Assembly (NCBI RefSeq): GCF_053078305.1 | Contig: NZ_CP166879.1 | DNA: 64,000 nucleotides | Reading direction: 5' to 3' (one strand) | Part shown: piece after piece, positions 29,192 through 43,942 of the stretch | Layout: every line of letters starts with the position of its first letter | Numbering within the stretch: position 1 is the first letter of the stretch | Notes under the pieces: generated by a model | Told to the model about the DNA's origin: nothing | Databases searched by the model: none | The model's input: the letters and a program-made list of their open reading frames with translations, nothing else | Made by a program: the position numbers and the translations under genes

Positions 29192-31091
29192 TATGATGAG
29201 CGCTGTCACAACAGCATTACAGCCCCTGATAAGGGCATTGCCGGTGACGCCAGTTGAATGGGCTGATCAAAATTATTATCTGCCTAAAGAATCTTCATAT
29301 GGTGAGGGAGAATGGAAAACGCTGCCGTTCCAGATCGCCATCATGAACAGCATGGGGAATGATCAGATCCGGACTGTTAATCTGATTAAATCTGCCCGTG
29401 TTGGCTATACAAAGATGTTGCTGGGAGTCGCCGGGTATTTTATTGAGCATAAATCCCGAAACAGTCTGCTTTTTCAGCCCACGGATTCTGCCGCTGAAGA
29501 TTTTATGAAGTCTCACGTGGAGGCGACGATTCGCGATGTTCCCTGCCTGAAAAAACTTTCTCCCTGGCTGGGACGTAAACATCGTGATAATACCATCACG
29601 CTGAAACGCTTTTCATCGGGTGTGGGTTTCTGGTGCCTGGGTGGTGCGGCAGCAAAAAACTACCGTGAAAAATCCGTGGATGTGGTCTGCTATGACGAGC
29701 TTTCCTCGTTCGAGCCGGATGTTGAAAAAGAGGGCTCGCCAACCCTGCTGGGGGATAAGCGTATTGAGGGCTCGGTATGGCCAAAATCCATTCGCGGCTC
29801 GACGCCAAAAATAAAAGGTTCCTGCCAGATCGAAAAAGCGGCCAACGAGTCGGCGCATTTTATGCGTTTTTATGTGCCCTGCCCACACTGCGGGGAGGAG
29901 CAGTATCTGAAATTTGGCGATGAGTCCACGCCTTTTGGCCTTAAATGGGAGAAGGACAGCCCCGAAAGCGTTTTCTACCTCTGTGAACATCATGGCTGCG
30001 TGATCCATCAGTCTGAGCTTGACCAGAGCAACGGGCGGTGGATCTGTGAAAACACGGGGATGTGGACCCGTGATGGTCTGACGTTTTTCAGCGCTGCGGG
30101 TAATGAAATTCCACCGCCGCGCTCCATCACGTTCCACATCTGGACGGCGTACAGTCCGTTCACCACCTGGGTACAGATAGTCTATGACTGGCTGGATGCA
30201 CTGAAAGATCCCAACGGCGTGAAAACCTTTGTGAACACCACGCTGGGCGAGACCTGGGAAGAGGCCGTGGGCGAAAAACTCGATCACCAGGTGCTGATGG
30301 ATAAGGTTGTGCGTTACACAGCGGCGGTGCCTGCCCGGGTGGTTTATCTGACGGCGGGTATTGACTCGCAGCGAAACCGTTTTGAGATGTATGTCTGGGG
30401 ATGGGCTCCGGGAGAGGAAGCCTTTCTGGTGGATAAAATCATCATTATGGGGCGTCCCGATGAGGAAGAGACGCTGTTACGTGTGGATGCGGCGATCAAC
30501 AAAAAATACCGCCATGCAGACGGAACCGAAATGACCATTTCCCGTGTCTGCTGGGACACAGGGGGGATCGATGGCGAAATTGTCTATCAGAGGTCAAAAA
30601 AACACGGTGTTTTCCGGGTGCTGCCGGTAAAAGGTGCATCTGTTTATGGCAAGCCGGTGATCACCATGCCAAAAACCCGCAATCAGCGGGGCGTGTATCT
30701 GTGCGAAGTGGGGACGGACACCGCAAAAGAAATTCTCTATGCCCGTATGAAAGCCGATCCCACGCCTGCGGATGAAGCCACGTCGTATGCCATCCGTTTT
30801 CCTGATGATCCGGAGATTTTTTCGCAGACAGAGGCGCAGCAACTGGTGGCGGAAGAGCTTGTGGAGAAGTGGGAAAAAGGAAAGATGCGTCTGCTGTGGG
30901 ATAACAAAAAGCGGCGTAACGAAGCGCTGGACTGCCTGGTGTATGCCTACGCGGCATTACGTGTGTCCGTGCAACGCTGGCAGCTTGATCTGGCTGTACT
31001 GGCAAAATCCCGGGAAGAAGAGACGACCCGGCCAACCCTTAAAGAACTGGCAGCGAAGCTGTCCGGAGGAGTGAATGGTTACAGTCGCTGA
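29163..31091 (+). CDS. Terminase large subunit (gpA-like)
   Basis: MNISEQQLN...VEWADQNYYLPKES... collinear with lambda gpA. Confidence 0.85.
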   Translation: MNISEQQLNNMMSAVTTALQPLIRALPVTPVEWADQNYYLPKESSYGEGEWKTLPFQIAIMNSMGNDQIRTVNLIKSARVGYTKMLLGVAGYFIEHKSRNSLLFQPTDSAAEDFMKSHVEATIRDVPCLKKLSPWLGRKHRDNTITLKRFSSGVGFWCLGGAAAKNYREKSVDVVCYDELSSFEPDVEKEGSPTLLGDKRIEGSVWPKSIRGSTPKIKGSCQIEKAANESAHFMRFYVPCPHCGEEQYLKFGDESTPFGLKWEKDSPESVFYLCEHHGCVIHQSELDQSNGRWICENTGMWTRDGLTFFSAAGNEIPPPRSITFHIWTAYSPFTTWVQIVYDWLDALKDPNGVKTFVNTTLGETWEEAVGEKLDHQVLMDKVVRYTAAVPARVVYLTAGIDSQRNRFEMYVWGWAPGEEAFLVDKIIIMGRPDEEETLLRVDAAINKKYRHADGTEMTISRVCWDTGGIDGEIVYQRSKKHGVFRVLPVKGASVYGKPVITMPKTRNQRGVYLCEVGTDTAKEILYARMKADPTPADEATSYAIRFPDDPEIFSQTEAQQLVAEELVEKWEKGKMRLLWDNKKRRNEALDCLVYAYAALRVSVQRWQLDLAVLAKSREEETTRPTLKELAAKLSGGVNGYSR

Positions 31092-31281
31092 ACTGCAGGC
31101 GCTGCGTCAGGCGCGCCTTGATTTATTAACCGGTAAACGGGTGGTGTCTGTCCAGAAAGATGGTCGCAGAATTGAATATACGGCGGCCTCTCTGGATGAG
31201 CTTAACCGTGCGATCAATGATGCTGAGTTGGTACTGGGGACAACCCGCCGTCGCCGTCGTCCGCTGGGAGTGAGGTTATGA
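31075..31281 (+). CDS. Head-tail joining protein (gpW-like)
   Basis: 68 aa; ...LTGKRVVSVQKDGRRIEYTAASL... Confidence 0.8.
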   Translation: MVTVAELQALRQARLDLLTGKRVVSVQKDGRRIEYTAASLDELNRAINDAELVLGTTRRRRRPLGVRL

Positions 31282-32150
31282 AACGAACGCCTGTCCTGAT
31301 TGATGTGAACGGCGTTCCGCTTCGGGAGAGCCTAAGCTACAACGGGGGCGGCGCAGGATTTGGCGGGCAAATGGCAGAGTGGTTGCCACCCTCGCAGAGT
31401 GCCGATGCGGCCCTGCTGCCCGCGTTGCGTCTGGGGAATGCCCGTGCAGATGATCTGGTGCGCAATAACGGAATAGCGGCCAATGCGGTGGCCCTGCATA
31501 AGGATCACATTGTCGGGCATATGTTTCTGATTAGCTACCGTCCGAACTGGCGCTGGCTGGGGATGCGGGAGACCGCGGCAAAAAGTTTTGTCGATGAGGT
31601 GGAGGCGGCCTGGTCAGAATACGCAGAAGGGATGTTTGGTGAGATCGACGTGGAAGGGAAACGCACGTTTACGGAATTTATCCGTGAAGGTGTGGGCGTT
31701 CATGCGTTTAACGGCGAAATCTTTGTGCAGCCGGTCTGGGATACGGAGAGCACGCAACTGTTTCGTACGCGTTTTAAAGCCGTGAGTCCGAAACGGGTGG
31801 ACACGCCAGGACACGGTATGGGGAACCGTTTTCTGCGGGCCGGTGTGGAGGTCGATCGATATGGTCGTGCCGTTGCGTACCATATCTGTGAGGATGATTT
31901 TCCTCACTCCGGGAGTGGACGATGGGAACGGATCCCGCGTGAACTTCTCACCGGGCGTCCGGCCATGCTGCATATTTTCGAGCCGGTGGAGGACGGGCAG
32001 ACCCGTGGGGCCAATCAGTTTTACAGCGTCATGGAACGGCTGAAGATGCTCGATTCCCTGCAGGCAACACAGCTTCAGTCGGCCATTGTTAAAGCCATTT
32101 ATGTCTATCATCTCCCCGTAGTTGTCCGCATCGTTCGCCAACTCCACTGA
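31278..32150 (+). pseudogene. Portal protein (gpB-like), N-terminal ~275 codons, interrupted near 32102
   Basis: Portal homology stops at ...QSAIVKAIY; the last 16 codons are read-through into inserted DNA. Confidence 0.75.
32091..32103 (+). repeat. Left att core AAAGCCATTTATG
   Basis: Direct repeat of 43930-43942 (one mismatch). Confidence 0.5.
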
Positions 32151-32225
32151 AACCCTTGCTGCGGCTGGAATGTCGTTTTCCATACTTTTGATGACCGTTC
32201 ATCACACTTCCAGGTTTTCGCGGTT

Positions 32226-32285
32226 TTGTGTATTGCAATGTGTATTGCAAATTGGCGATCGGGATGGGTGTGTATTGCAAATCTC
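32226..32285 (+). repeat. Three TGTGTATTGCAA repeats (putative integrase arm sites)
   Basis: Same motif occurs twice at 43838-43862 near the other junction. Confidence 0.4.
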
Positions 32286-32298
32286 TTGAGGGCTGTTA

Positions 32299-33540
32299 AT
32301 GGCTATTGAAAACAAACTCAGTGACAAACTGTTAAAGAGTCTTGTCGGAAAACGGCAGGACAAACAAAAAACAATAGCGGATGGGCGCGGGTTGTCTGTG
32401 CGTGTAAGCATGGTTGGGGGGATCAGCTTTGTTTTTTACTATCGTCTTGGTGGCAGGGAATCCCCTCCGGTATGGCTTACACTTGGGCGCTATCCTGATA
32501 TGTCTCTTGCAACAGCCAGGCGCATGCGTGATCAGTGCCGTGAGTGGCTGGCTGAAAATCTGGACCCCCGCAGGCAAATAAAACTTGCCGCCGAAAAAAC
32601 CATGCAACCAGTGACCGTAAGGGATGCGCTGTTTTACTGGTACGACAATCACGCCACAACAGCCAGAAAAGAGCATGAATATTTAATAAAACGATTTGAA
32701 AAGCATATCTTCCCCTATATCGGTGATATGGCTATAGAACAGTGCAAATTACACACATGGCTTGCCGTCTTTGACAGGATCAAAAAAAATGCGCCTGTTA
32801 TGTCTGGTGCAATTTTTCTTGATATCAAACAGGCGTTGCGTTTTTGTCGCGTCAGGCAATACATCGCGTGCGATCCCTTTGGCGATATTAACGTAAGTTA
32901 TGTCGGGCGCTCATCCGGTATAAGGGATCGCGTTCTTAATATCAATGAAACAGCGGATGTATGGTCTTATGCTTACGGTAATAATTTGCTGACACTGTCA
33001 TCAATACATAACAGAAGAATAATGGTTATCTGCCTGGTGTTTGGTTGCCGTCAGCAGGAGGCGAGGTTATCCACATGGGACGAATGGGATTTAAAAAACT
33101 GGGTATGGACAGTCCCAAAAGAGCACAGCAAAAACAAGGAGGCCATAGTAAGGCCTGTTCCTGACGGCATAAAACAATGGCTCGTTAATCTTTACGCAGA
33201 AACAAAAAATCGCGGTTATGTTGTCGGTTGTGCTTTGCAAAGGGCGACAATAACAGGGGCTGCAAACAGAATATGCAGGCGTCTTGGTCATGATATTAAT
33301 GGCTTGTGGTGCATACATGATTTCAGGCGCACATTTTCCACTGCGCTTAATGATATGGGGGCGGATCCTTATATTGTCGAACTTCTTTTAGGTCATAAAG
33401 TGAAAGGGGTTGCCGGTGTTTACAATAAAAGCAGGCATATAAAGAAAAAACTTGAGGTGCTTAATATGTGGGTTAATTACCTTAATACGATAGCAGGATT
33501 TAACAACAACGTTATCGAGCTTAATAAAGAGGTGGTGTGA
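32299..33540 (+). CDS. int: P4-type tyrosine integrase
   Basis: 413 aa; N-terminal LSDKLLKSL...GRGLSVRV arm-binding domain; C-terminal ...LLGHK...VYNKS. Confidence 0.85.
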   Translation: MAIENKLSDKLLKSLVGKRQDKQKTIADGRGLSVRVSMVGGISFVFYYRLGGRESPPVWLTLGRYPDMSLATARRMRDQCREWLAENLDPRRQIKLAAEKTMQPVTVRDALFYWYDNHATTARKEHEYLIKRFEKHIFPYIGDMAIEQCKLHTWLAVFDRIKKNAPVMSGAIFLDIKQALRFCRVRQYIACDPFGDINVSYVGRSSGIRDRVLNINETADVWSYAYGNNLLTLSSIHNRRIMVICLVFGCRQQEARLSTWDEWDLKNWVWTVPKEHSKNKEAIVRPVPDGIKQWLVNLYAETKNRGYVVGCALQRATITGAANRICRRLGHDINGLWCIHDFRRTFSTALNDMGADPYIVELLLGHKVKGVAGVYNKSRHIKKKLEVLNMWVNYLNTIAGFNNNVIELNKEVV

Positions 33541-33541
33541 T

Positions 33542-33799
33542 ATGGCAATTTATTCTCTTGTTGATGAAAACGATTTGCGCACAATGAAGGACATTGATCG
33601 GTTCATTCGTGAAAAAGAGTGCATAGCACTTACCACGCTGGCAAACTCAACACGCTGGAAAATGGAGCAGGCAGGTAAATTCCCGCGACGTATCAAGATC
33701 GGTGAACGTGCGGCAGGGTATCGACTTTCAGAGGTTCAGGCATGGATCCGTGGTGAGTGGCATCCTGGATGGAAACCTGGAAAAACAAAACAGCAATAA
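33542..33799 (+). CDS. alpA: AlpA-family regulator / excisionase
   Basis: 85 aa; directly after int. Confidence 0.7.
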   Translation: MAIYSLVDENDLRTMKDIDRFIREKECIALTTLANSTRWKMEQAGKFPRRIKIGERAAGYRLSEVQAWIRGEWHPGWKPGKTKQQ

Positions 33800-33853
33800 C
33801 CAGTAAATAACGCCCCTCATCAAGAGGGGTTTTTGTCTATAGGGTAAAACGCG

Positions 33854-34432
33854 ATGAATAAAAATATTGCCGTGACGGGCAAGGGGTACGCTCGTCCAGT
33901 GAAAAAATTCTGTGATATTCGTGATCTTGTCGTTCTGCGCTTTGATGGTGTGAGCGTTCGCGTGGTGTATGTGAACGGCGATCCGTGGTTTGTTGCCGTT
34001 GACGTGTGCGCTGCGCTGGAAATTGTTGATCACAAGGTTGCGTTACGCCGTCTCGATGATGATGAAAAGGGGGAGTGTTTAATACCCACCCCAGGTGGAA
34101 ATCAAACAATGCGAACGGTATGCGAGTCAGGGTTCTACAAACTAATCGCCAGAAGTCGGAAAGCTGTTACTCCTGGCACGTTCGCCCGTCGTTTCAGTAA
34201 CTGGGTATTCAGAAATGTGATACCAGGTATCAGAAAAACGGGGGCTTATGGTATCCCGTGGGGGGCATTACAGGATTTTTCCCGCCGTAAAGAGCAATAT
34301 CAAATAAGTGCCAGCGAGAAGGGGAGGGAGCTACAGGCATGTAAGCGCAAAAAACGTGAACTGGAGGAAGAAGAAAAAAGGCTGATACGTGAATATCAGC
34401 CTGAGTTTTACTTTGGTGAGCGTATTCAGTAA
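33854..34432 (+). CDS. Bro-N-domain protein (antirepressor-like)
   Basis: ...VVYVNGDPWFVAVDVCAALEI... Bro-N signature. Confidence 0.65.
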   Translation: MNKNIAVTGKGYARPVKKFCDIRDLVVLRFDGVSVRVVYVNGDPWFVAVDVCAALEIVDHKVALRRLDDDEKGECLIPTPGGNQTMRTVCESGFYKLIARSRKAVTPGTFARRFSNWVFRNVIPGIRKTGAYGIPWGALQDFSRRKEQYQISASEKGRELQACKRKKRELEEEEKRLIREYQPEFYFGERIQ

Positions 34433-34895
34433 CCACACGCGGTGCTGATTATACGGTACATCGTGTTAACCGAGAAGCTACCCACCAGCAAGGCAAAATC
34501 TTCTGCTAAAAAATGACATATGGCCAGTCGTCCGGAAAGCATGAAATTTTACAAAAATGGAAAATGAAGATTTTTATTGTGCTGGTGGGTAAAAACAAAA
34601 AGCGCCCCGTTGCCGGAGCGCCCTTGTGAACAATTAACCTGCTGCGAAAAAATTGGATCAGTGCAGGGAAATTATATCAACTGTGTGAAGAAGCGCCACA
34701 ATTGCCAGTTTAGCTTTGCGGCGAACGCGTCAATAAAGAATATTCTTTCTTTAAATTCTGTTTGTGTATTTTTTCGTAGTTTTTCGTAGTTTTTCGTAAG
34801 GAGAAAGAGCGGCGCGTATGCACCGCTAAGGAGTTTATTTTCATGACTTATGCAGCTTTCAATCTTAGCACCGCCGTAGCTGGTGGACAAGGCTA

Positions 34896-35123
34896 TCAGC
34901 CAGGCGGTCGGTTTTTAGTGGCTTTTAACCGCCGTGGGTATTTCTCGACAAAATCTTCAAGGGCAAATTTTTCTGGTGGCACTAAGCGCGGCGCTGGTGG
35001 TGGTATTTTTGTTCTGGTTAGTTCTTCCTCAAGTCTGGCGCAGGCTTCTAACTGCCTTTGCCGGATGATTTCATCATCTTGCGTTTGCGTGTCTTGTATT
35101 GGTGATAGTGTGTTGTTGGTCAT
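34896..35123 (-). CDS. Hypothetical protein
   Basis: 75 aa ORF downstream of putative repressor; weak. Confidence 0.3.
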   Translation of the reverse strand: MTNNTLSPIQDTQTQDDEIIRQRQLEACARLEEELTRTKIPPPAPRLVPPEKFALEDFVEKYPRRLKATKNRPPG

Positions 35124-35180
35124 GATACTGCCCTGTAAAGCAATGCGCCGGAGTACCTCACGCCACGGCGCTGATAGTGA

Positions 35181-35501
35181 TTATTCTGATTCTTGGGTCT
35201 TGCGACGCTGGAGTTCTTCGCGTGCAACGGTGACAAGTTGCCCGATTTCTTCCGCTGCTTTGATGCCGATTTGTTCGACCTTAGCCAGAGCATCCAGTGA
35301 AGACACAAGGGGATTTTCTCCGCTGCCTTCTGCCTGGCGGCGGGCGATTTCACCGCGCATGGCGGTTACTATGAATCCGGCGTTGCTTTCACCGTCCAGT
35401 TTTACGGATTCCATGCCTTCAATAACATCATGCGGGATCCGAGCTGTCAGTGATTGTGATTTTGCGTTTTTTGAACCTGTAGCCATCTGTAATCCTCTCA
35501 A
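35181..35501 (-). CDS. Putative satellite regulator/repressor
   Basis: 106 aa, divergent from operator-like region. Confidence 0.4.
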   Translation of the reverse strand: MRGLQMATGSKNAKSQSLTARIPHDVIEGMESVKLDGESNAGFIVTAMRGEIARRQAEGSGENPLVSSLDALAKVEQIGIKAAEEIGQLVTVAREELQRRKTQESE

Positions 35502-35683
35502 TGAAAGTGTAAGACAATATACACATAAAAAGTCTTACATAAAAGCATTGACATGTAAGCCACCTATAAATAAAGTTACTTACACCTTGTTAATGCAAGG
35601 TGCAGAAACGACGAAACCCGGCAGTGCGCTAACACTAACCGGGCTTCTAACCACCAACGATAGAAAGCGTATCGAGGTAGCTA
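35502..35683. promoter_or_regulatory. Divergent control region with palindromic TGTAAGAC/GTCTTACA operators
   Basis: tgtaagacaatatacacataaaaagtcttaca and ttgacatgtaagcc...agttacttacac. Confidence 0.4.
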
Positions 35684-36045
35684 TGAGAAATCATACCACA
35701 CACCCGCAAGGGCGGGACTCGCACAACCTGAATAAATACATCTGGCGTTTTCTGGCCCGAAAAAACCAGTTGATCGCCAGTGTCGAAAATAGCTATGATT
35801 CCCGCGCACCTCATAAAACGGGTGCCGGGATTGGCGTCCTGGGCAAAACTGAAGCGCATAACACGCGCCCCGCGTGTTTTTTTGTGCCGCATAGTCACAC
35901 CTTATCAATGGTGGGCTGTACGGGGGCGGAGCAATCCGCGCCGGTTTCTTCAGTGTCCGGTTACGCCAACCCTGTACAGTCCGCCACCAGCGAAATTGGC
36001 GTTTCCGGTGGCGGTTATCTTAACCACACTGAGGAGGCTGCCAAC
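35684..36045 (+). promoter_or_regulatory. Structured leader with terminator hairpin; homologue of rha leader at 6632-6930
   Basis: Conserved blocks plus hairpin ACACGCGccccGCGTGT followed by U7. Confidence 0.45.
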
Positions 36046-36237
36046 ATGGCTACTATCCCTACCCTTGTACATTCTCAAACCGCCTTTCTCTGGCGCTTTA
36101 TCATCTTTGGCGCGTCAGACCATCAAATCATCCACGTCACCGCCTGGACGGAACGCGAAGCGCGTAGCCGTTGCCCGTCCGGTTGTGTTGCTGTATTCGC
36201 CGCCCGTATTCGTCAGGAGGTGTGCCATGTGCAATAA
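36046..36237 (+). CDS. Small ORF sharing its first seven codons (MATIPTL) with rha
   Basis: GAGGAGG RBS; 63 aa; N-terminal nucleotides identical to rha start. Confidence 0.3.
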   Translation: MATIPTLVHSQTAFLWRFIIFGASDHQIIHVTAWTEREARSRCPSGCVAVFAARIRQEVCHVQ

Positions 36238-36484
36238 AACCACACCGGACGCAGCCGCCGCGCTCACTACACTGATGCACGCGCTGATTGATATTTCTGT
36301 TATTGCTGACAGGGCGCATAAGCACGCCACCAGTGAAACAGAATATGCCGGGGCTTTCGTTCCTCATTCGCTGGCGGTTATGCAACTTAGTGCTGATATG
36401 GCGCTGAATGAGGCCAAAGCTATCCTGATTTCTGATTGTGAAAATGGGGGGGGGTTATGCGTGATGATCGTTTTAATGCCCTGA
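36227..36484 (+). CDS. Hypothetical protein
   Basis: 85 aa, CAGGAGG RBS. Confidence 0.35.
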   Translation: MCNKTTPDAAAALTTLMHALIDISVIADRAHKHATSETEYAGAFVPHSLAVMQLSADMALNEAKAILISDCENGGGLCVMIVLMP

Positions 36485-36678
36485 AACAGGAGTTTGATGG
36501 TGCGCCTGATGATGCAGGTGATGCGCTTTCGTCAATATCCGAACTGATAAGAGTGGCCTTTTTCTTACTTGGCACGAAAGAATATAAATCAACTGGAATA
36601 GACGTACTGAATATTACTGCTGATTATGCGGAATATATGGCAGAAGTGGATTTAAGAAAGATAACGGACAGGGGGTAA
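36457..36678 (+). CDS. Hypothetical protein
   Basis: 73 aa, coupled. Confidence 0.35.
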   Translation: MRDDRFNALKQEFDGAPDDAGDALSSISELIRVAFFLLGTKEYKSTGIDVLNITADYAEYMAEVDLRKITDRG

Positions 36679-36679
36679 T

Positions 36680-36913
36680 ATGCGTGATATTTACCACGAA
36701 ACAATAGACCGCGCATTTAGTGCCCTTGCTTACGCTGAAGGTATGTACGAAATATTGCAAATGTGTCTGGAAACATTTGGCGATAATGAGCGTGATGTAA
36801 AGAAGGCGCGGATTATTAAATCACTGATAACTCTCCTTGAACCTGTAATAACAGAGTTGCAGGAAATAGACTTATTGCACGACAGATATAACGAACAGCA
36901 CACCGGAGAATAA
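36680..36913 (+). CDS. Hypothetical protein
   Basis: 77 aa, coupled. Confidence 0.4.
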   Translation: MRDIYHETIDRAFSALAYAEGMYEILQMCLETFGDNERDVKKARIIKSLITLLEPVITELQEIDLLHDRYNEQHTGE

Positions 36914-36918
36914 AAATA

Positions 36919-37218
36919 ATGAAACTTAAATATCCTGGCTTAACTGCCAGTGGCAACACTCACCCTAAATTTACGCGCGGTGATATTTACCGCGACCAGT
37001 ACGGCGGCACGGTAATGATTAAGGGCGTGGCGGGACGGTGCGTAACTTACCGCCGTGAAGGCTACGAATATGATTGCGTGATGCCTGTTTATCAGTTCCG
37101 GCGTGATTTTTCTCTGGTACAGACCGCGCCGCATAACGTGCCCACCAGCAACGCCAGGGCACGGGCAAACATCCAGAAGCTGAAAACCATGATTAACGGA
37201 TTCAGGGGTAAAAAATGA
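36919..37218 (+). CDS. Hypothetical protein
   Basis: 99 aa, stop overlaps helicase start. Confidence 0.4.
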   Translation: MKLKYPGLTASGNTHPKFTRGDIYRDQYGGTVMIKGVAGRCVTYRREGYEYDCVMPVYQFRRDFSLVQTAPHNVPTSNARARANIQKLKTMINGFRGKK

Positions 37219-38624
37219 AACTGGCACCGAACGTAAAACGATTACCGAAAGATAAATACACCGAAGCGGTTATTTTTGCGGGTATTGATGCTCACTCATT
37301 CGCAGAGCATTACATCATTGCACAGGCCAAAAAAGCAGGCGATCCAGTCCCTCCCGTTTATCTGGGGCGTTATCAGTTAAGCGAACTGGATAACCTCCAG
37401 ATTGTTGATGATGGGCGATACAGGGCGACGGTGATACGCGCCGGAAATATTGAAGAGCCGCAGCTGTTAACCATCGCCACGAAACTGGCGAGCGCCGGAG
37501 TCCAGGAGGCGCGGCTACTTTCTGAAAATTTCGAATTGCTGGAGGAATGGAGCGACCAGCTTCCACGGCTTAGGGAGGCATGGGAACGCGGGGAAAGCCT
37601 GGTCATGAAAAAAATTCCCCAGCGAAAAACCACGCTACCGATGAGCGTTGGATCTACCGGATACGACACACAGCTTGATTACGTGGTAAAGGGGATTATT
37701 CCGGCATCGTCGCTTTGCAGCATATACGGGGCGAGCGGTTCCTATAAATCATTCCTTGCCGGATCGTGGGCGTGTCACGTTTCCACGGGCCGCCAGTGGG
37801 GAGGCCGCAGGGTGGCGCATGGCGCTGTTCTCTATGTGGTTGGTGAAGGCGGTATCGGCGTTCCGCGTCGTGTAAAAGCCTGGGAGGTTGTGCACGGTGA
37901 GCAGGTGAAAAATCTGTATCTGGTAAACCGTCCCATCTTTCCGGCTGTCCCGCTTGATGTTGATGAACTGGTTATTGCTGCCAGTCAGGTGGAGAGGGAA
38001 ACGGGTAAACCTGTTCGCATGATTATTCTGGACACGCTGGCGCGTTGCTTTGGCGGCAATGATGAAAATGACTCCCGCGACATGGGGGCATTTATCCGTG
38101 GTTGTGACGAGCTTAAACGGCGCACAGGGGCTACGGTGCTGGTGGTTCACCATTCCGGCAAGGATGAAACAAAGGGGGCGCGTGGTTCCAGTGCATTTCG
38201 TGCATCACTGGACGCTGAATACCGGATACGCAGGGAGGACGCAGGAAGCGAAGCGCTGGTTATCTCATGCACCAAAATGAAGGACGCGGAGGAACTCAAA
38301 GAGGCTGCCTATGATTTGCGGGTGGTGGAGCTTTTTACCGACGCTGACGGGGAGTTAATTACGTCGCTGGTGGTGGTGGATAAGCCGCGCCCTCCCGTTG
38401 AACTGGAGCGCATCGAGGAGGCAGGCAACAAGACGGAAAACCATACCGCGCTATGGGGGTGCATCCGTTCACGCACACAGAACGGCGACAAGTGCACGAT
38501 CCCGCTGTTACGTGACGATATGAAAAAGCTGGGGTATGACACAAAACACCTTAAACGATGGTTAGCCAAACTGGAAAAAGACGACGTGATCTACATTGAC
38601 GGTGATGATGTAGGACCACTGTAA
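37215..38624 (+). CDS. Replicative ATPase/helicase (RecA/DnaB-like NTPase domain)
   Basis: 469 aa; Walker A GASGSYKS, Walker B ILDTL, ...VVHHSGKDETKGARGSSA... Confidence 0.75.
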   Translation: MKLAPNVKRLPKDKYTEAVIFAGIDAHSFAEHYIIAQAKKAGDPVPPVYLGRYQLSELDNLQIVDDGRYRATVIRAGNIEEPQLLTIATKLASAGVQEARLLSENFELLEEWSDQLPRLREAWERGESLVMKKIPQRKTTLPMSVGSTGYDTQLDYVVKGIIPASSLCSIYGASGSYKSFLAGSWACHVSTGRQWGGRRVAHGAVLYVVGEGGIGVPRRVKAWEVVHGEQVKNLYLVNRPIFPAVPLDVDELVIAASQVERETGKPVRMIILDTLARCFGGNDENDSRDMGAFIRGCDELKRRTGATVLVVHHSGKDETKGARGSSAFRASLDAEYRIRREDAGSEALVISCTKMKDAEELKEAAYDLRVVELFTDADGELITSLVVVDKPRPPVELERIEEAGNKTENHTALWGCIRSRTQNGDKCTIPLLRDDMKKLGYDTKHLKRWLAKLEKDDVIYIDGDDVGPL

Positions 38625-38826
38625 AAAGTGGGCATTAAAAGTGGGAAAGGTGGGCGATTTAACGTAATTTTAACAAAATCACCCACTTTCCCACGTGTAT
38701 ATATCCCAAAAAGTGGGCACTAAAAAAATACCTATGAAACAAGATGATATAAATCCCAAACTTCCCACGTTGGACGAAGTGGGAAAACGTAAAAAGTGGG
38801 CGAAAAAAGTGGGTAGAGGTGGGCGA
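38625..38826 (+). repeat. Iteron array (AAGTGGG-type repeats), putative satellite ori
   Basis: About nine AAGTGGG / CCCACTT copies immediately downstream of helicase gene. Confidence 0.5.
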
Positions 38827-39078
38827 ATGACTCAAAAACACAGAGACAGAACAGAGCCAAAATATAAAGCGTTAGACATGACAGAGCACGCTTTAAAGGT
38901 GGCAATCAGGGTAATAGACCGCCACACGCGGGAAGGATACGCGAAGGAACATCCCGACCTGATAAGCGCATTCATGACCACAGCGGCGGCAAACTTTGCC
39001 ACGCTGACAGAACGGGAGATAGCCGAAGCGGAACAGGTAACAACCATCAACGTTAAAACCGGAGAGGTGGAATCATGA
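38827..39078 (+). CDS. Hypothetical protein
   Basis: 83 aa from MTQKHRDR; upstream part of tracked ORF lies on iterons and is rejected. Confidence 0.35.
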   Translation: MTQKHRDRTEPKYKALDMTEHALKVAIRVIDRHTREGYAKEHPDLISAFMTTAAANFATLTEREIAEAEQVTTINVKTGEVES

Positions 39079-39485
39079 CAGCACAGATAGCCGCTTACGG
39101 GCGGCTGGTGGACGACCCGCAGGTAAAACAAACCAGCAAGGGCACACCGATGACGCTGGCGCGTATGGCGGTATCTCTGCCATGCAGCCAGGCACAGGAC
39201 GGGCAGGCTACGTTATGGCTATCAGTGATGGCATTTGGTAAGCAGGCCGACTTCCTGGCTAAACATCAAAAAGGCGATGTTGCCAGCGTATCCGGCACGA
39301 TGCAGGTAAGCCAGTGGACCAGACAGAACGGGGAAACGCGGCAGGGTTATCAGGTTATTGCAGACAGTGTAATCAGTGCCCGTGCTGCCCGTCCTGGCGG
39401 GAGCAGACGTACAACCACAGGCACACAGGGTAATCAGCCACCAGCGGGAGGCGATGACCCTTACGGTGACGGTATTCCGTTCTGA
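39075..39485 (+). CDS. SSB-like single-strand DNA-binding protein
   Basis: OB-fold-like N-terminus, Gly/Pro-rich tail ending DDPYGDGIPF. Confidence 0.55.
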   Translation: MTAQIAAYGRLVDDPQVKQTSKGTPMTLARMAVSLPCSQAQDGQATLWLSVMAFGKQADFLAKHQKGDVASVSGTMQVSQWTRQNGETRQGYQVIADSVISARAARPGGSRRTTTGTQGNQPPAGGDDPYGDGIPF

Positions 39486-39495
39486 GGGGGTGACG

Positions 39496-39768
39496 ATGGT
39501 ACATGACCGCATAGCGGAGGAACTCGAGGCAAAAGGCTTTTACCGGAGGGCGGCGGCGCGATGGGGTGAAGTTATGCAGCTGGTGGAGACAGACAAGGAA
39601 CGGCATCAGGTTACGATGCGACGGCTGGAATGTTCCAGGAAGGCACAGAGGCCACCGGAGCCGCCGGATAACTTCGGAGACCTGAAAAAAGCAGTAGATC
39701 GCACTTATGCCGAAATGGGTATGGATGGTGTAAGCGATGAAATATGGCGTAATTACCCAGACAGCTAA
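39496..39768 (+). CDS. Hypothetical protein
   Basis: 90 aa, GAGGGGG RBS. Confidence 0.35.
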   Translation: MVHDRIAEELEAKGFYRRAAARWGEVMQLVETDKERHQVTMRRLECSRKAQRPPEPPDNFGDLKKAVDRTYAEMGMDGVSDEIWRNYPDS

Positions 39769-39774
39769 TCAACA

Positions 39775-39846
39775 GCCGGAGAAATCCGGCTTTTTTGTAC
39801 CCAAAAAAAGCCCGATAAGTACAGGAGGCATCTTATCGGGCTTTTG
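39775..39846 (+). terminator. Two tandem intrinsic terminators ending the replication operon
   Basis: GCCGGAGAAATCCGGC+U6 and GCCCGATAAG...CTTATCGGGC+U4. Confidence 0.5.
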
Positions 39847-40007
39847 CATATGAGGTTTTTTTGGTGCACTGACACACATGATCGGGGTAATCATTTCATA
39901 ATTTGCAACACAACTCAACATCATTGCACAAAATGCAATCCTGATTATAATCAGAGCTGGATGAACATCCAGTTCTGATTTTTTAAGTCAAAGAGGAATT
40001 TCTTACT

Positions 40008-40214
40008 ATGGCTGAAGAGAAAAAAGGCGGTGTTTCGGTGTACATAAGCCCCGAAATCGTGGAGGTGCTCAAGCAGCGCCACAAAAAAAACTATGAGGCT
40101 GGCGTAGCGGCTGGACTGGATCCGCTGATGACGCCGGAGCCGTCGATAGGTTCACTTGTGCGCTCTTATTTACTTGCGGCGCTTGGGATGCATAAAAATT
40201 ATGGTGGTGAATAA
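40008..40214 (+). CDS. Hypothetical protein preceding capsid gene
   Basis: 68 aa, AGAGGAA RBS. Confidence 0.4.
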   Translation: MAEEKKGGVSVYISPEIVEVLKQRHKKNYEAGVAAGLDPLMTPEPSIGSLVRSYLLAALGMHKNYGGE

Positions 40215-41269
40215 TGACAGTAAAAGCAATGGCACTTACAACTAACCAGCTTTTCGCGTACCTGAATCGCGGGGATATTGCAGAATTTAAATTCAGTCCG
40301 CTGTTTACCACGCTGTTTTTCCCGAACGTGGCGACCTTCAACACCCAGAACATCATGCTGGACACCCTGGACATTGAAGAGGTTACGATGTCAGCGTTCT
40401 GTTCGCCTATGGTGGGTAGTCAGGTCCAGCGCGATAAAGGGTACGAAACCAGCACGATTAAACCAGGCTACATGAAACCCAAACACGAAATCGATCCAAC
40501 AAAAACCATCATGCGCATGGCTGGAGAAGATCCGGCACAGCTTAACGACCCTACCTACCGCCGTATGCGCCTGATTACTGGCAACATGCGCCGCCAGATA
40601 AACGCCATTAAAGCGCGCGTGGAATGGCTGGCGGTGAATGCGATAACGACCGGAAAAAACATCATTGAGGGCGAAGGCATAGAACGCTATGAAATCGACT
40701 GGAAAATACCGGAAAACTGCATCATAGAGCAGGCCAAGGGTAAAAAATGGTCCGAGCATGATAAAGATATTTACGATCCAATCTATGACATCGAACTATA
40801 CGCAGATCAGGCAGGTTGCCCCGCCAACGTCATGATTATGGGCGCTGAGGTATGGCGCACGTTACGCAGCTTTAAAAAATTCCGCGAACTGTACGATCTT
40901 TCCCGTGGTTCAGAATCCGCCGCAGAACTGGCCTGTAAAAACCTGGGTGAAGTAGTGAGCTTTAAAGGCTATCTGGGCGATATTGCCCTTATCGTCTATT
41001 CCGGCAAATACACTGACAGCGACGGTACCGAAAAATATTTCCTTGAGCCTGATTTGCTGGTCCTGGGTAACACCAACAATAAAGGGCTGGTGGCCTATGG
41101 TGCGATTATGGATCAGGAAGCGGTAAGAACGGGCGCAACGCAAAACATGTTCTACCCGAAAAACTGGATTGAAGACGGCGATCCGGCGATTGAGTACGTT
41201 CAGACGCACAGCGCACCGCAGCCGGTACCGGCAGATATTCGCAAATTTGTTACCGTCAAAATTGCTTAA
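40214..41269 (+). CDS. Major capsid protein paralog (gpE-like) encoded by satellite
   Basis: Shares blocks PGYMKPKHE, GEDPAQLNDP.YRR, VVSFKGY.GD.A.VV, DGTEKY with prophage E at 46646. Confidence 0.8.
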   Translation: MTVKAMALTTNQLFAYLNRGDIAEFKFSPLFTTLFFPNVATFNTQNIMLDTLDIEEVTMSAFCSPMVGSQVQRDKGYETSTIKPGYMKPKHEIDPTKTIMRMAGEDPAQLNDPTYRRMRLITGNMRRQINAIKARVEWLAVNAITTGKNIIEGEGIERYEIDWKIPENCIIEQAKGKKWSEHDKDIYDPIYDIELYADQAGCPANVMIMGAEVWRTLRSFKKFRELYDLSRGSESAAELACKNLGEVVSFKGYLGDIALIVYSGKYTDSDGTEKYFLEPDLLVLGNTNNKGLVAYGAIMDQEAVRTGATQNMFYPKNWIEDGDPAIEYVQTHSAPQPVPADIRKFVTVKIA

Positions 41270-41280
41270 CGGGGGATTCT

Positions 41281-41616
41281 ATGGACACTCCATACATTGA
41301 GTTATTTGCAGGCAGTCAGCAGGTATCCACGACGCTGGTACATTTTGCCGCTGATGCTGGCGTTATTCAGGAATTTACCCCGCTGATGCTGGCGGACAAT
41401 GGCGAGTTTAAGCCGTGGGATGGTCAGGAATCTGGCAAGGCTGTTTATCTGACCTCGTACCCCGTGGACACGTCAAAGCAGAAATCAGCACAGTGTTACA
41501 AGACGGGGATATTTAATATCGCCGCCGTAAACTGGCCTGAGAGCGCCGACACTGACGCGAAAAAATGCGCCGCCTTTGCGGGTTCTGGCGTATCCGTTCA
41601 GCCGCTGGCGCGATAA
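41281..41616 (+). CDS. Head decoration protein paralog (gpD-like)
   Basis: 111 aa; TPLMLADNG..KPWDGQ and YKTGIF motifs shared with prophage D. Confidence 0.7.
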   Translation: MDTPYIELFAGSQQVSTTLVHFAADAGVIQEFTPLMLADNGEFKPWDGQESGKAVYLTSYPVDTSKQKSAQCYKTGIFNIAAVNWPESADTDAKKCAAFAGSGVSVQPLAR

Positions 41617-41628
41617 GCAGGGGAAACG

Positions 41629-42042
41629 ATGGCAACGAATGAAAGCATCATGGCGCTACCGCTGGCGAGTAAATTTAAAGCAGAAGCGCGGGCAATGGCT
41701 GACAGAGGTTTATCAACCTACGAGGCCGTATATCAACTCAACAAACTGGAAGAGCAGGACAAGCCGCGCGCTGATGCGATTATGGCGCTTCATGAACATA
41801 ACGACTATCAGCCGCTGTTACGTGCAATGGCAAACGTGCCATGTATTAGCGTCGATAATGCTCGTGAAATCCTGAACATGACCATAGAGCAGGAGCGCCC
41901 AAAGGTTGCGCCGGAGCTTACCGCAGCCTTTGAAAACTTTATGGACATGCACAGCCCGAAAGCCGTATCACCCGGCATGGCATACGACGGCAGAAACCAG
42001 GGCGATGAAGGCGACGTCGATCGCATACTGAAAACCATCTGA
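41629..42042 (+). CDS. Scaffold-like protein (Nu3-like C-terminus)
   Basis: C-terminus ...AAFENFMDMHSPKAV... parallels prophage C/Nu3 tail ...ALFEHFMANHSPAAV... Confidence 0.5.
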   Translation: MATNESIMALPLASKFKAEARAMADRGLSTYEAVYQLNKLEEQDKPRADAIMALHEHNDYQPLLRAMANVPCISVDNAREILNMTIEQERPKVAPELTAAFENFMDMHSPKAVSPGMAYDGRNQGDEGDVDRILKTI

Positions 42043-42072
42043 CATAAGGCCGGAGAAATCCGGCTTTTTTTA

Positions 42073-42150
42073 CGGGTCCTTTCCGGCATATGGACCCGTT
42101 ACGGGGCGGCGACCTCGCGGTTTTTCGCTATTTATGAGCTTTTTTCGGGT
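42073..42150 (+). other. Satellite cos site (cosN 42104-42115)
   Basis: About 48 bp identical to prophage cos (GGGTCCTTTCCGGCATATGGACCCGTTACGGGGCGGCGACCTCGCGG), then divergent. Confidence 0.65.
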
Positions 42151-42236
42151 GCTGGTGGTGGTTTTGTTGTTCGCTCTATCTCTATGAATAAAAAGGGAAA
42201 GATAAAACCAATACACCAACCTGAAACATTACTTAA

Positions 42237-42791
42237 GTGGGGATATTGATGAAATCGCACCTGATGAACAAAAAAAACATGGCGCAAAGCTGCCGTGTAA
42301 GTGCGACAGCGTTCGACAAGTGGGGAGTGACTCCCGTTGAACGTAAAGGACGCGAGGCTTTTTACGATGTTGCCAGCGTGATAGACAATCGGGTAAGCAA
42401 TGCAATTAACCAGGTTACAAACGACAAAGGCGAGATTGATGATGATGAACTCTTACGAGTCAGGATCAGATTACTGACCGCCCAGGCTGAGGCGCAGGAA
42501 CTTAAAAACGAGCGCGATCGCGGTGACGTAATTGATACTGAGTTTTGCCTGTACGCGCTTTCAAAGCTGGCGAGTCAGATTTCTTCAATCATGGACAGTT
42601 TGCCGCTTACCATGCAAAGGCGCTTCCCGCAGATTACTCCCGCTATGCTGGATGGGCTTAAAAGGGAAGTGGTTAAAGCCTGTAATGCCAGTGCCACAGT
42701 TGCCGACAACCTCCCGAAGATACTGGCTGATTACCTGATGGAAACTACCGGAGACGTACCGGAGAAGTTGCTACAGAAGAAAGGCGAGTAA
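42237..42791 (+). CDS. Terminase small subunit homolog (Nu1-like; possible packaging redirector)
   Basis: ...FCLYALSKLASQISSIMDSLPLTMQRRFPQI... parallels Nu1. Confidence 0.65.
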   Translation: MGILMKSHLMNKKNMAQSCRVSATAFDKWGVTPVERKGREAFYDVASVIDNRVSNAINQVTNDKGEIDDDELLRVRIRLLTAQAEAQELKNERDRGDVIDTEFCLYALSKLASQISSIMDSLPLTMQRRFPQITPAMLDGLKREVVKACNASATVADNLPKILADYLMETTGDVPEKLLQKKGE

Positions 42792-42959
42792 CAGACGCGC
42801 AATTATTGAACAAAAGTAAGGCCCGACATGAAATCACCCAAAAATGCCTTTTTCATGCGTTTGTATGTCTGACCTTTTACGGTTTCGATATTATAAAAAA
42901 CAAATAGTTACGCTCGAGAGGTACCGACACGCATTTTTCAGGAAAATTTTCATAAACAG

Positions 42960-43020
42960 ATAAAAACCGCGAGGTCGCCGCCCCGTAACGGGCCATAATT
43001 CCAGGAAGGACCCGACGACA
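42960..43020 (-). other. Second, inverted cos-like site (cosN complement 42972-42983)
   Basis: Minus strand reads CCCGTTACGGGGCGGCGACCTCGCGG...TTTATGAAAATTTTCC. Confidence 0.5.
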
Positions 43021-43047
43021 CCAGGCTATCAGAACGATGAGGGCACA

Positions 43048-43329
43048 ATGACAGAAGCCGAACTACTGGGATTAATCCGCTACGTTACCGGAATCAGCCA
43101 GCAGCATGACGAACAGGCCACGCAGCCGGACAGCGTGACCGCTGAAAATTATGCGCGTGTTGTTGCTGAGGTGATGCGCCGTGATGGTATCCAGCTTAAT
43201 GATGCAGATATGCGCGACATACGGATCCGCGTTCTTGAAATGCTGGCCTACCGTCGCCGCGTGCAGACGTACAGGGAAAAAGCAAAAATAACGTACCAGT
43301 GGAAGAAGCCGGAGCGATTACGGCGGTAA
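43048..43329 (+). CDS. Hypothetical protein
   Basis: 93 aa. Confidence 0.35.
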   Translation: MTEAELLGLIRYVTGISQQHDEQATQPDSVTAENYARVVAEVMRRDGIQLNDADMRDIRIRVLEMLAYRRRVQTYREKAKITYQWKKPERLRR

Positions 43330-43929
43330 CTTGCTGATATTCCCGATAACGCAAAATTGCGCTCTGTCCTAACCCGTTGATATTTTCGGGAACAGCCAAC
43401 GGCTGAGGCCGGAACAACGATTATCTTTCAGATAGTCAGAGCTACGAAATTTTCGTAGTTTAATTACTCGCCAGTTTATCGTTAACTCGTTGATATTTTC
43501 GGTAACCTCAATTTGAGGAGATCGGAAACATAACCCTTCACATTCTGAATGGTTATAATGACCACTCAGACCATCAAGGCAACCATAACGAACATCGTTA
43601 CGGTTGGAGCTTTTACCCCACTGGGGGGAAGGTGCACATCTGGATCATCATTACCGTGATCAAGGGTATGTAAAACCCACCAGCCTGATTAACTGTTAAC
43701 CGGAAAAAAGCCAGGTAGCCAATCTCGATATGGGGATCCCCATATCGACATTAACGCCCCCTAGAACTGCGCATATCTGCATATAAAAACATCCACCAGC
43801 TTTATGACGGATGCCGCTCATCTGATAAATAATCGTGTATTGCAATGTGTATTGCGACTCCTTTAAACGATAGGTTTGAGCATTCGTAATGTACTGTTTT
43901 TAAATTTTATTTTTTCCTGTCTTTTCATA

Positions 43930-43942
43930 AAAGCCATGTATG
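43930..43942 (+). repeat. Right att core AAAGCCATGTATG
   Basis: Direct repeat of 32091-32103. Confidence 0.5.

What the first reader, a model, noticed from the sequence alone, without database searches (positions are those of the whole stretch)
42237..42791. Satellite TerS homolog as a possible packaging redirector
A Nu1-like small terminase sits next to a satellite-specific cosB-like region, with no cognate large terminase in the element. This is the arrangement expected for a protein that pairs with helper TerL to favour satellite DNA.
Basis: inference. Interest (0 to 1): 0.5.

Follow-up and report, generated by a model that had tools for sequence, protein, structure and literature searches.

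The report
Satellite's own lambda-type small terminase
A phage satellite lodged inside its helper prophage's portal gene carries its own Nu1-type small terminase and a private packaging site, in the exact slot where related E. coli islands carry Rpp; this is most likely another way of steering the helper's packaging motor onto satellite DNA.

Summary
ORF 42237-42791 (likely start ATG 42249, 180 aa) is a Nu1-family small terminase (Pfam 2.2e-22, PHROG57 8.8e-52). It lies in an 11.8-kb helper-embedded PICI that splits a lambdoid prophage's portal gene. The element has no large terminase.

The gene follows cos1. The cosQ/cosN part of cos1 is identical to the helper's over 47 nt, but its cosB matches none of 50,697 phage records. 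The element has the EcCICFT073 layout, and the terS fills the slot of rppA, the characterised packaging redirector, without sequence similarity to it.

The DNA-binding domain is N15 gp1-like (59%) and only 13% identical to the helper's. cos1 carries an N15-like GT-rich block at the R3 position. A natural chimera (phage-21-like DNA-binding domain plus the same satellite C-terminus) sits beside a 21-like cosB, so binding domain and cosB co-vary.

dN/dS is 0.10-0.21 overall and 0.03-0.06 in the DNA-binding domain. About 15% of complete E. coli genomes carry the cassette.

Pairing with helper TerL is inferred only; the C-terminus is at most 41% identical to any phage's.

Unexpectedly, the segment between the two inverted cosN sites occurs in both orientations in nature. 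This is a new variant of a known strategy, of moderate interest.

The parts
42249..42791 (+). Satellite terS (180 aa with stop). The maximal ORF starts at GTG 42237. The protein has an N15-gp1-like winged-HTH DNA-binding domain (aa 1-50), a conserved Nu1 central domain (aa 73-125), and a C-terminal Nu1-type region with an 11-aa satellite-specific extension.
   Evidence: dN/dS is 0.10-0.21. By domain, omega is 0.03-0.06 in the DNA-binding domain and 0.17-0.32 in the C-terminus.
42073..42125 (+). cos1 cosQ-like and cosN core (cosN 12-mer at 42104-42115). It is identical to the helper prophage's cos over 47 nt.
42116..42236 (+). cos1 cosB region, private to terS-type satellites. It has a conserved GT-rich block at the R3 position (42152-42171, CTGGTGGTGGTTTTGTTGTT) and a second conserved block at the R2 position (42209-42225, CAATACACCAACCTGAA).
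   Evidence: No match in 50,697 phage records. Conserved in related satellites, and resembles N15 R3 GGTTGTTGTTT and the N15-type cos of locus L012.
42792..43014 (-). cos2, inverted relative to cos1. cosN is at 42972-42983 on the - strand. The cosQ side is 42984-43014. The cosB with three R-like sites (42792-42971) is of phage-21 type.
   Evidence: Inverted repeat I1, 72 nt, 82% complementary. About 80% identity to the phage 21 cos through cosB. Corresponds to cos2 of EcCICFT073.
42049..42070 (+). Hairpin terminator after the 137-aa gene. An identical 22-nt copy lies at 39775-39796, so the two copies bracket the capsid module.
   Evidence: (D13).
32091..43937 (+). The whole satellite (helper-embedded PICI, 11,839 bp between the 8-bp att cores AAAGCCAT at 32091-32098 and 43930-43937). 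Contents: int 32299-33540; alpA-like 33542-33799; Bro/Ant 33854-34432; DUF4222 36919-37218; RepA-type helicase 37215-38624; SSB 39075-39485; gpE-like 40214-41269; gpD-like 41281-41616; 137-aa Nu3-like 41629-42042; cos1; terS; cos2; 93-aa ORF 43048-43329.
   Evidence: Same gene order as EcCICFT073.
28456..28690 (+). Helper prophage cos. cosN is at 28487-28498. cosB has three CATGTCCGG-type R sites at bp 50, 109 and 139.
28682..29191 (+). Helper prophage terS (169 aa). It is 48% identical to the satellite TerS over aa 58-171 only; the DNA-binding domains are unrelated in sequence.
29106..31091 (+). Helper prophage terL ORF (gpA-like; start codon uncertain). It is the only large terminase near the satellite.
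31278..32098 (+). N-terminal part of the helper portal gene, interrupted by the satellite. The C-terminal part is at 43930-44709.
   Evidence: Joining the two parts at the 8-bp core restores an intact 531-aa portal.

Best explanation
The ORF encodes the packaging-specificity subunit of an EcCICFT073-family PICI, here helper-embedded in a portal gene.

Proposed mechanism:
- The N-terminal winged-HTH domain, of N15 gp1 type and unrelated to the helper's, binds the private cosB of cos1. This is probably the GT-rich block at bp 49-68 after cosN, plus a second block at bp 106-122.
- The retained Nu1-type central and C-terminal domains assemble with the helper's large terminase (gpA type).
- TerL then nicks the satellite's cosN, which together with cosQ is identical to the helper's, and packages satellite concatemers.

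The protein thus does in one polypeptide what Rpp plus helper TerS do together in EcCICFT073. By competing for TerL it should also depress helper packaging.

Shown here by computation: family membership, domain mosaic, private cosB, co-variation of DNA-binding domain with cosB, absence of TerL, slot equivalence with rppA, purifying selection, and wide distribution.

Inferred: DNA binding at cos1, TerL recruitment, and interference.
For: - Family: Nu1 family.
- Closest phage relative: N15 gp1, full length, 46%.
- Identity by domain: DNA-binding domain 59% to N15 against 13% to the helper; central domain 49-57% to all lambdoid TerS.
- Predicted fold: the AF2 model gives a beta-alpha-alpha-beta-hairpin-alpha N-terminus.
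- cos1: cosQ/cosN is identical to the helper's over 47 nt, but cosB is absent from 50,697 phages.
- R3-position motif: a GT-rich block sits at the R3 position in all terS-type satellites, including a 57%-diverged clade. It resembles N15 R3.
- Natural chimera P0100: a phage-21-like DNA-binding domain is fused to the identical satellite C-terminus, and it lies next to a 21-like R3 (TCATGTCGGTAC).
- Single-cos satellites keep cos1 with terS and lack cos2.
- The gene occupies the exact slot of rppA between cos1 and cos2.
- Rpp is shown experimentally to redirect packaging to cos1 (PMC6739421).
- There is no TerL in the element.
- dN/dS is 0.10-0.21 overall and 0.03-0.06 in the DNA-binding domain.
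- The cassette is present in about 800 of 5,426 complete E. coli genomes.
- All contexts examined down to 57% identity are satellites, never next to a TerL.
Against: - No experiment exists for this protein.
- The C-terminal 44 residues, which form the TerL-binding region in lambda Nu1, are only 41% identical to the embedding helper's and 32% to the lambda, N15 and phage-21 proteins. Lambda and phage-21 subunits at similar divergence are not interchangeable (established knowledge).
- Co-variation of the satellite C-terminus with its embedding helper's TerS in two helper/satellite pairs goes in the predicted direction. The difference is only 2-4 residues of 41, so the test is inconclusive.
- No promoter-like site lies upstream of terS, and a terminator precedes cos1. 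Expression must therefore rely on antiterminated read-through.
- The Foldseek matches to winged-HTH proteins are weak (best E 0.057).
- This particular helper is also interrupted by a Mu-like prophage, so this copy may not currently be mobilisable.
Confidence: 0.6

Rival explanations
1. Rpp-like heteromer. The satellite TerS does not contact TerL productively by itself. It co-assembles with helper TerS through the conserved central self-association domain. The mixed complex binds cos1 through the satellite DNA-binding domains and reaches TerL through the helper subunits' C-termini. Helper TerS is poisoned at the same time.
For: The gene has the same genomic slot as rppA, and Rpp works by binding helper TerS (PMC6739421). 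The central domain is 49-57% identical to every lambdoid TerS tested, while the C-terminus is only 32-41%.
Against: Unlike Rpp (139-154 aa, no TerL-binding tail; PMC9026076), this protein keeps a full Nu1-type C-terminal region under purifying selection (omega 0.17-0.32). It has no sequence similarity to RppA or to any PDB chain.
Confidence: 0.2
2. Mainly an interference or defence factor. The protein acts as a decoy small terminase that titrates the TerL of incoming or resident lambdoid phages. Promotion of satellite packaging is secondary or absent.
For: Rpp and SaPI Ppi both block helper packaging (PMC6739421). The C-terminus evolves faster than the rest of the protein, as would be expected in an arms race.
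Against: The tightest constraint is on the DNA-binding domain (omega 0.03-0.06). That domain co-varies with the adjacent cosB, which a pure decoy would not need.
Confidence: 0.1
3. Passenger gene. The gene is a phage terS captured together with other late genes into the satellite's 'late zone', with no role in the satellite's life cycle.
For: PICI late zones capture helper late-gene clusters (PMC10111431).
Against: - The ORF is intact in hundreds of genomes.
- dN/dS is 0.10-0.21 at dS up to 0.7.
- No phage carries this protein at more than 46% identity.
- Its cosB is private.
- It never occurs with its own TerL.
Confidence: 0.05

Closest known systems
Rpp (RppA/B/C) of EcCICFT073-type PICIs (Fillol-Salom 2019, PMC6739421)
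   Same: Same element family and the same slot: downstream of cos1, whose cosB is private, and upstream of the inverted cos2. Both have an N-terminal winged-HTH domain proposed to read an R3-position site about 50-65 bp from cosN. Both rely on the helper's TerL and on shared cosN/cosQ.
   Different: There is no detectable sequence similarity (BLASTP E 1.2). Rpp is 139-154 aa, lacks the Nu1 C-terminal TerL-binding region and needs helper TerS. This protein is a full-length Nu1 homologue of 180 aa.
SaPI-encoded TerS (SaPI1/SaPIbov1; Ubeda 2007, as summarised in PMC6739421)
   Same: A satellite-encoded small terminase without a large terminase. It gives the satellite its own DNA recognition and uses the helper's TerL.
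   Different: SaPI TerS belongs to pac (headful) systems and to a different TerS family, and it works alongside Ppi. This protein is cos-type, of the Nu1 family, with a cosN/cosQ shared with the helper and a private cosB.
Phage N15 gp1 and lambda Nu1 (phage small terminases)
   Same: The closest phage relative is N15 gp1: 46% overall and 59% in the DNA-binding domain. The cos-cosB-terS layout is the same. There is a GT-rich R3-position motif like N15's GGTTGTTGTTT.
   Different: No overlapping terL follows the gene. There is an 11-residue C-terminal extension. The cosB sequence is not found in phages. All examined genomic contexts are satellites.
Helper-embedded PICIs (Tommasini, Mageeney & Williams 2023, PMC10111431)
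   Same: The satellite is integrated in, and co-oriented with, a lambdoid late gene (portal), and has the int-alpA-Bro-replication-late zone order. Portal sites are listed in that paper's supplement.
   Different: That paper describes its type element as lacking terS and presumed to use the helper's cos machinery. This element carries its own terS and a private cosB.
cf-PICIs (Alqurainy 2023) and SaPIbov5/P4 (cos mimicry)
   Same: All are satellites that secure their own packaging.
   Different: cf-PICIs encode both TerS and TerL plus a full capsid set. SaPIbov5 and P4 simply copy the helper's cos and have no TerS. This element has TerS only, plus gpE-, gpD- and Nu3-like genes.

Membership tests
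Lambda-type small terminase (Phage_Nu1, PF07471) | Significant match to the family profile over most of the protein | tested here: met
   Pfam E 2.2e-22, residues 37-153. PHROG 57 E 8.8e-52, residues 5-177. 46% identity to N15 gp1 over 88% of the length.
Lambda-type small terminase (Phage_Nu1, PF07471) | N-terminal winged helix-turn-helix DNA-binding domain | tested here: inconclusive
   The AF2 model (mean pLDDT 72.6; 73-83 over aa 1-50) gives strand-helix-helix-beta hairpin-helix. Identity to the N15 gp1 DNA-binding domain is 59%. The top Foldseek hits are MerR, RacA and BldC winged-HTH proteins, but none is below E 0.05.
Lambda-type small terminase (Phage_Nu1, PF07471) | Gene lies immediately downstream of cosN-cosB | tested here: met
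   cosN is at 42104-42115, cosB at 42116-42236, and the ATG at 42249.
Lambda-type small terminase (Phage_Nu1, PF07471) | Followed by, or overlapping, a cognate large terminase gene (the phage arrangement) | tested here: not met
   No TerL homologue is present in 32091-43937. The gene is followed by the inverted cos2 and a 93-aa ORF.
Lambda-type small terminase (Phage_Nu1, PF07471) | C-terminus binds the N-terminus of TerL | not testable with these tools
   Only homology is available: the C-terminal region aligns with Nu1, with 41% identity to the helper's.
Rpp (redirecting phage packaging) proteins | Sequence homology to RppA/B/C | tested here: not met
   BLASTP against RppA (CFT073 c1503) gives E 1.2. 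No PDB chain matched at E <= 0.05.
Rpp (redirecting phage packaging) proteins | Located between cos1 (private cosB) and inverted cos2 of an EcCICFT073-type PICI | tested here: met
   Alignment of the window with CFT073 shows conserved flanks and cos cores with only the cassette swapped.
Rpp (redirecting phage packaging) proteins | Short protein (139-154 aa) lacking the TerL-binding C-terminal region; acts through helper TerS | tested here: not met
   The protein is 180 aa with a full Nu1-type C-terminal half. Dependence on helper TerS is not testable here.
Satellite-encoded TerS redirectors (SaPI type) | TerS encoded by a satellite that lacks TerL and has its own recognition site | tested here: met
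Satellite-encoded TerS redirectors (SaPI type) | pac/headful-type TerS family with a companion Ppi | tested here: not met
   The protein is cos-type and of the Nu1 family. No Ppi-like gene was recognised among the ORFs scanned.
Gram-negative PICI / helper-embedded PICI (the element) | int, alpA, replication module, small size, precise att sites, no lysis or tail genes; for helper-embedded PICIs, insertion in and co-orientation with a prophage late gene | tested here: met
   int, alpA-like, Bro/Ant, DUF4222, RepA helicase and SSB are present. The element is 11,839 bp with the 8-bp core AAAGCCAT, and joining at the core restores the portal ORF. It has the same organisation as EcCICFT073.

The most novel reading that the evidence does not exclude
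The unit cosN-cosB1-(terS or rpp)-cosB2-cosN may be an exchangeable and physically invertible 'packaging-specificity cassette'.

Its contents are swapped between satellites:
- Rpp or TerS as the specificity gene.
- An N15-like or a 21-like DNA-binding domain in TerS.
- At least four cos2 types that copy phage cosB sites.

The whole segment also flips between the two inverted cosN cores. The flip could occur by RecA recombination. It could also occur by terminase cutting at both sites followed by re-annealing of a fragment that has two identical cohesive ends.

Flipping would reverse the direction in which each specificity packages the element. This may be the reason these islands keep two cos sites, a question left open in 2019.
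Probability: 0.3. Interest if true: 0.7.

Novelty: new variant of a known kind. Interest (0 to 1): 0.45.

Why it matters
E. coli PICIs spread virulence and defence genes, and their packaging hijack is currently explained by Rpp alone. This locus shows that a large share of the family uses a full-length Nu1-type TerS in Rpp's place. About 800 of 5,426 complete E. coli genomes carry the cassette, including Nissle 1917, ATCC 25922 and O157:H7 strains.

This has three consequences.
- It gives a natural comparison for asking whether Rpp evolved from such a TerS, and what the minimal requirements are for redirecting a cos terminase.
- It supplies ready-made domain swaps: N15-like or 21-like DNA-binding domains on one common C-terminus, each with a matching cosB. 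These could be used to engineer packaging specificity in PICI-based delivery vectors.
- The orientation polymorphism of the cos-bounded cassette bears directly on the unanswered question of why these islands carry two cos sites.

Tried and rejected
- Sequence search of the PDB with the TerS and with the 93-aa neighbour found no meaningful hits. There was no match to the lambda Nu1 DNA-binding domain or to RppC.
- NCBIfam gave no family for the satellite or helper TerS, or for TerL.
- Foldseek of the AF2 model against the PDB gave only weak winged-HTH hits, best E 0.057. This is consistent with the expected fold but not decisive.
- I tested whether the satellite TerS C-terminus tracks the TerS C-terminus of the helper it is embedded in, using two satellite/helper pairs. 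The result was 41% against 32% and 41% against 37%. The direction is right but the difference is too small to count.
- A scan for the IHF consensus between the R3- and R2-position blocks of cos1 found none within one mismatch. Phage 21 and the satellite's cos2 do have one.
- A sigma-70 promoter scan found nothing upstream of terS.
- The Chi sequence GCTGGTGG inside the R3-position block (42151-42158) is not conserved in related satellites, so it is treated as coincidence.
- A search for a canonical Mu left-end sequence to define the Mu-like insertion gave no match.
- Literature searches found no functional test of a Nu1-type TerS in E. coli PICIs, and no paper holding both 'EcCICFT073' and 'inversion'.
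- I considered and rejected three readings: that the ORF is Rpp (no similarity), that the element is a cf-PICI (no TerL, portal or protease), and that the second cos is a chance inverted repeat (it is conserved in CFT073 and elsewhere).

Full report
**The ORF**

The ORF reported at 42237-42791 exists on the + strand. It is a lambda-type small terminase. Pfam Phage_Nu1 matches at E 2.2e-22 over residues 37-153. PHROG 57 'terminase small subunit' matches at E 8.8e-52 over residues 5-177.

The GTG at 42237 is only the first possible start. RefSeq homologues begin at the ATG equivalent to 42249, which has a GGGGA ribosome-binding site. This gives a 180-aa protein.

The protein collection holds many near-identical 180-aa E. 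coli proteins, all called 'terminase small subunit'.

**The element**

The gene lies in an 11,839-bp island bounded by the 8-bp cores AAAGCCAT at 32091-32098 and 43930-43937. Joining the flanks at that core restores an intact 531-aa portal gene of the surrounding lambdoid prophage.

The island encodes, in order:
- integrase
- an AlpA-like protein
- a Bro/Ant protein
- DUF4222
- a RepA-type helicase
- SSB
- a gpE-like capsid protein (47% identical to the helper's)
- a gpD-like decoration protein
- a 137-aa protein resembling the C-terminus of the scaffold/protease
- the terS
- a 93-aa ORF

tblastn with three lambdoid TerL proteins finds no large terminase in it. The island is therefore a helper-embedded PICI of the kind described by Tommasini et al. 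(PMC10111431). The prophage that surrounds it is the presumptive helper. That prophage's own cos (28487), terS (28682-29191) and terL lie 13 kb upstream.

**Relation to EcCICFT073 and Rpp**

The gene order matches the prototype E. coli PICI EcCICFT073. A DNA alignment shows conserved flanks and two conserved cos cores in inverted orientation. Only the segment between them is replaced.

In CFT073 that segment carries rppA (c1503, 144 aa). In the window it carries the terS. The two proteins show no sequence similarity.

Rpp has been characterised experimentally. It binds the DNA-binding domain of helper TerS, blocks phage packaging and directs packaging to cos1. cos2 is dispensable (PMC6739421). 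Murialdo and Feiss argued that Rpp lacks a TerL-binding tail, and that this is why helper TerS is still required (PMC9026076). The protein here keeps that tail.

**The cos sites**

- cos1 (cosN at 42104-42115) shares 47 identical bases of cosQ/cosN with the helper's cos. It then diverges.
- Against 50,697 phage records only the first 77 nt of cos1 align. Its cosB is therefore private to satellites.
- In every terS-type satellite examined, a GT-rich block sits at bp 49-68 after cosN (CTGGTGGTGGTTTTGTTGTT in the window). This includes a clade whose TerS is only 57% identical. A second conserved block sits at bp 106-122.
- These are the positions of R3 and R2 in the helper's cosB.
- The motif resembles N15's R3 region GGTTGTTGTTT. 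It also resembles an N15-type cos found as cos2 of an rppA island, where the two blocks form a perfect 10-bp inverted repeat.
- cos2 of the window (cosN on the - strand at 42972-42983) is about 80% identical to the phage 21 cos through all three R sites.
- Other islands carry other phage-type cosB sequences at cos2. CFT073's cos2 is nearly identical to this window's helper cos.
- Some terS-type satellites have cos1 only.

**Domain structure**

The closest phage protein is N15 gp1, at 46% identity. Identity by domain:

| Region | N15 gp1 | Embedding helper | Other lambdoid TerS |
|---|---|---|---|
| DNA-binding domain (aa 1-50) | 59% | 13% | lambda 38%, phage 21 32% |
| Central domain (aa 73-125) | 53% | 55% | 49-57% to all tested |
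| C-terminal (aa 126-169) | 32% | 41% | lambda and phage 21 32% |

No phage exceeds 56.5% identity over the C-terminal 84 residues.

The AF2 model has a mean pLDDT of 72.6. Its N-terminus is strand-helix-helix-hairpin-helix, followed by long helices. The Foldseek hits are MerR-type winged-HTH proteins but are weak.

A natural chimera, P0100 (194 aa), is the most informative case. It joins a phage-21-like N-terminal half to a C-terminal half identical to the window's protein. It lies next to a cosB whose R3 (TCATGTCGGTAC) is of 21 type. DNA-binding domain and cosB therefore change together, while the satellite C-terminus stays constant.

**Selection and distribution**

Pairwise dN/dS among six E. 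coli alleles is 0.10-0.21. It is 0.03-0.06 in the DNA-binding domain at dS near 1, and 0.17-0.32 in the C-terminal third.

The cassette is found in about 800 of 5,426 complete E. coli genomes. All contexts inspected are satellites: at the roxA-phoQ site, near the yejO autotransporter pseudogene, or inside prophage portal and capsid genes. None has an adjacent TerL.

**Interpretation**

The most likely mechanism has three steps. TerS binds cos1 through its N15-type domain. It brings in the helper's TerL through its Nu1-type C-terminal region. TerL then cuts the shared cosN and packages satellite DNA.

The DNA-recognition part rests on several independent computed results. The TerL-pairing part rests on homology alone, and the C-terminus is divergent. 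A mixed complex with helper TerS (Rpp-like), or a mainly interfering role, remains possible. A passenger gene is unlikely given the selection data.

No sigma-70-like promoter precedes terS, and a terminator lies just upstream. Expression probably depends on antiterminated late transcription reading through the island, as proposed for helper-embedded PICIs.

**Known or new**

That PICIs may carry a terS which redirects packaging is standard annotation (PMC6092414; PMC10085698). The cos-type Nu1 version in the Rpp slot was not found in the papers searched. Neither were its N15-like specificity or the 21-like chimera. I therefore rate it a new variant of a known kind.

**Unexpected: the cassette inverts**

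In some assemblies the terS points against its flanking genes. The sequence shows that exactly the cosN-to-cosN segment is inverted, with the crossover inside the shared core.

Junction-specific queries against complete genomes gave these counts:

| Cassette | Direct | Inverted |
|---|---|---|
| Window-type terS | 493 | 5 |
| rppA | 64 | 15 |

The 15 inverted rppA genomes met the >=80% coverage cut-off, and the eight listed in the output were 100.0% identical to a synthetic inverted junction built from CFT073. Two complete genomes were inspected and confirm the gene orientations. No paper in the library holds both 'EcCICFT073' and 'inversion'.

Whether the flip has a function is open. It may matter because the 2019 study explicitly left unexplained why these islands have two cos sites.

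Noticed in passing
window 42104-42983; loci L008/L010 vs L009, L013, L019: The segment between the two inverted cosN cores (cosB1 - terS or rppA - cosB2) occurs in both orientations relative to the flanking genes. In complete E. coli genomes the counts are terS type 493 direct and 5 inverted, and rppA type 64 direct and 15 inverted. The crossover lies inside the shared cosQ/cosN core.
   Followed up: yes
window 42792-43014 (- strand); L003 16090-16370; L001 13675-13930; L012 2816-2980: cos2 is always a phage-type cos with a full cosB, and its type varies between islands. It is phage-21 type in the window, the window-helper type (CATGTCCGG) in CFT073, a GGATCTGA-repeat type in RM14516, L009 and L013, and N15 type in an rppA island. 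In the window, cos2 does not match the embedding helper's cosB.
   Followed up: partly
window 31278-32098 and 43930-44709: The satellite splits the helper's portal gene at codons 270-275. The 8-bp core AAAGCCAT is duplicated, and joining at it restores a 531-aa portal. This is a helper-embedded PICI at a portal site.
   Followed up: yes
locus L009 6001-6585 (protein P0100): A natural chimeric satellite TerS of 194 aa. The N-terminal half is about 75-85% identical to phage 21 gp1, and the C-terminal half is identical to the window's TerS. It lies next to a 21-like cosB.
   Followed up: partly
window 48471-53296 and onward: A Mu-like transposable prophage (repressor 49246-49764 on the - strand, transposase A 50184-52292, B 52364-53296) begins right after a truncated Z-like tail-completion gene (48471-48953; it matches only positions 13-161 of a 199-position profile). 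The helper prophage is therefore interrupted a second time and may be defective.
   Followed up: partly
window 40008-42042; 39775-39796 and 42049-42070: The satellite capsid module comprises a 68-aa ORF, a gpE-like protein (47% to the helper's gpE), a gpD-like protein (34%) and a 137-aa protein resembling the C-terminus of the scaffold/protease. It is bracketed by two identical 22-nt hairpin terminators (GCCGGAGAAATCCGGCTTTTTT).
   Followed up: partly
window 38621-38813: Three to four direct repeats of AAAAAGTGGGCA(T/C)TAAAA, spaced about 84 bp apart, lie just downstream of the helicase gene. They may be the satellite's replication-origin iterons.
   Followed up: no
window 32227-32282 and 43835-43859: Repeated GTGTATTGCAA motifs (four copies, including a 21-nt exact repeat) lie just inside both ends of the satellite. 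They are probably integrase arm-type binding sites rather than the crossover core.
   Followed up: no
loci L014, L015, L005-L007: Some terS-type satellites, several of them embedded in a prophage capsid E gene, have only cos1. There the terS is followed directly by the next gene with no cos2. An AlpA-like 127-aa gene replaces the 137-aa gene.
   Followed up: partly
window 42151-42158: A Chi sequence (GCTGGTGG) lies inside the R3-position block of cos1. It is not conserved in related satellites, so it is probably coincidental.
   Followed up: partly
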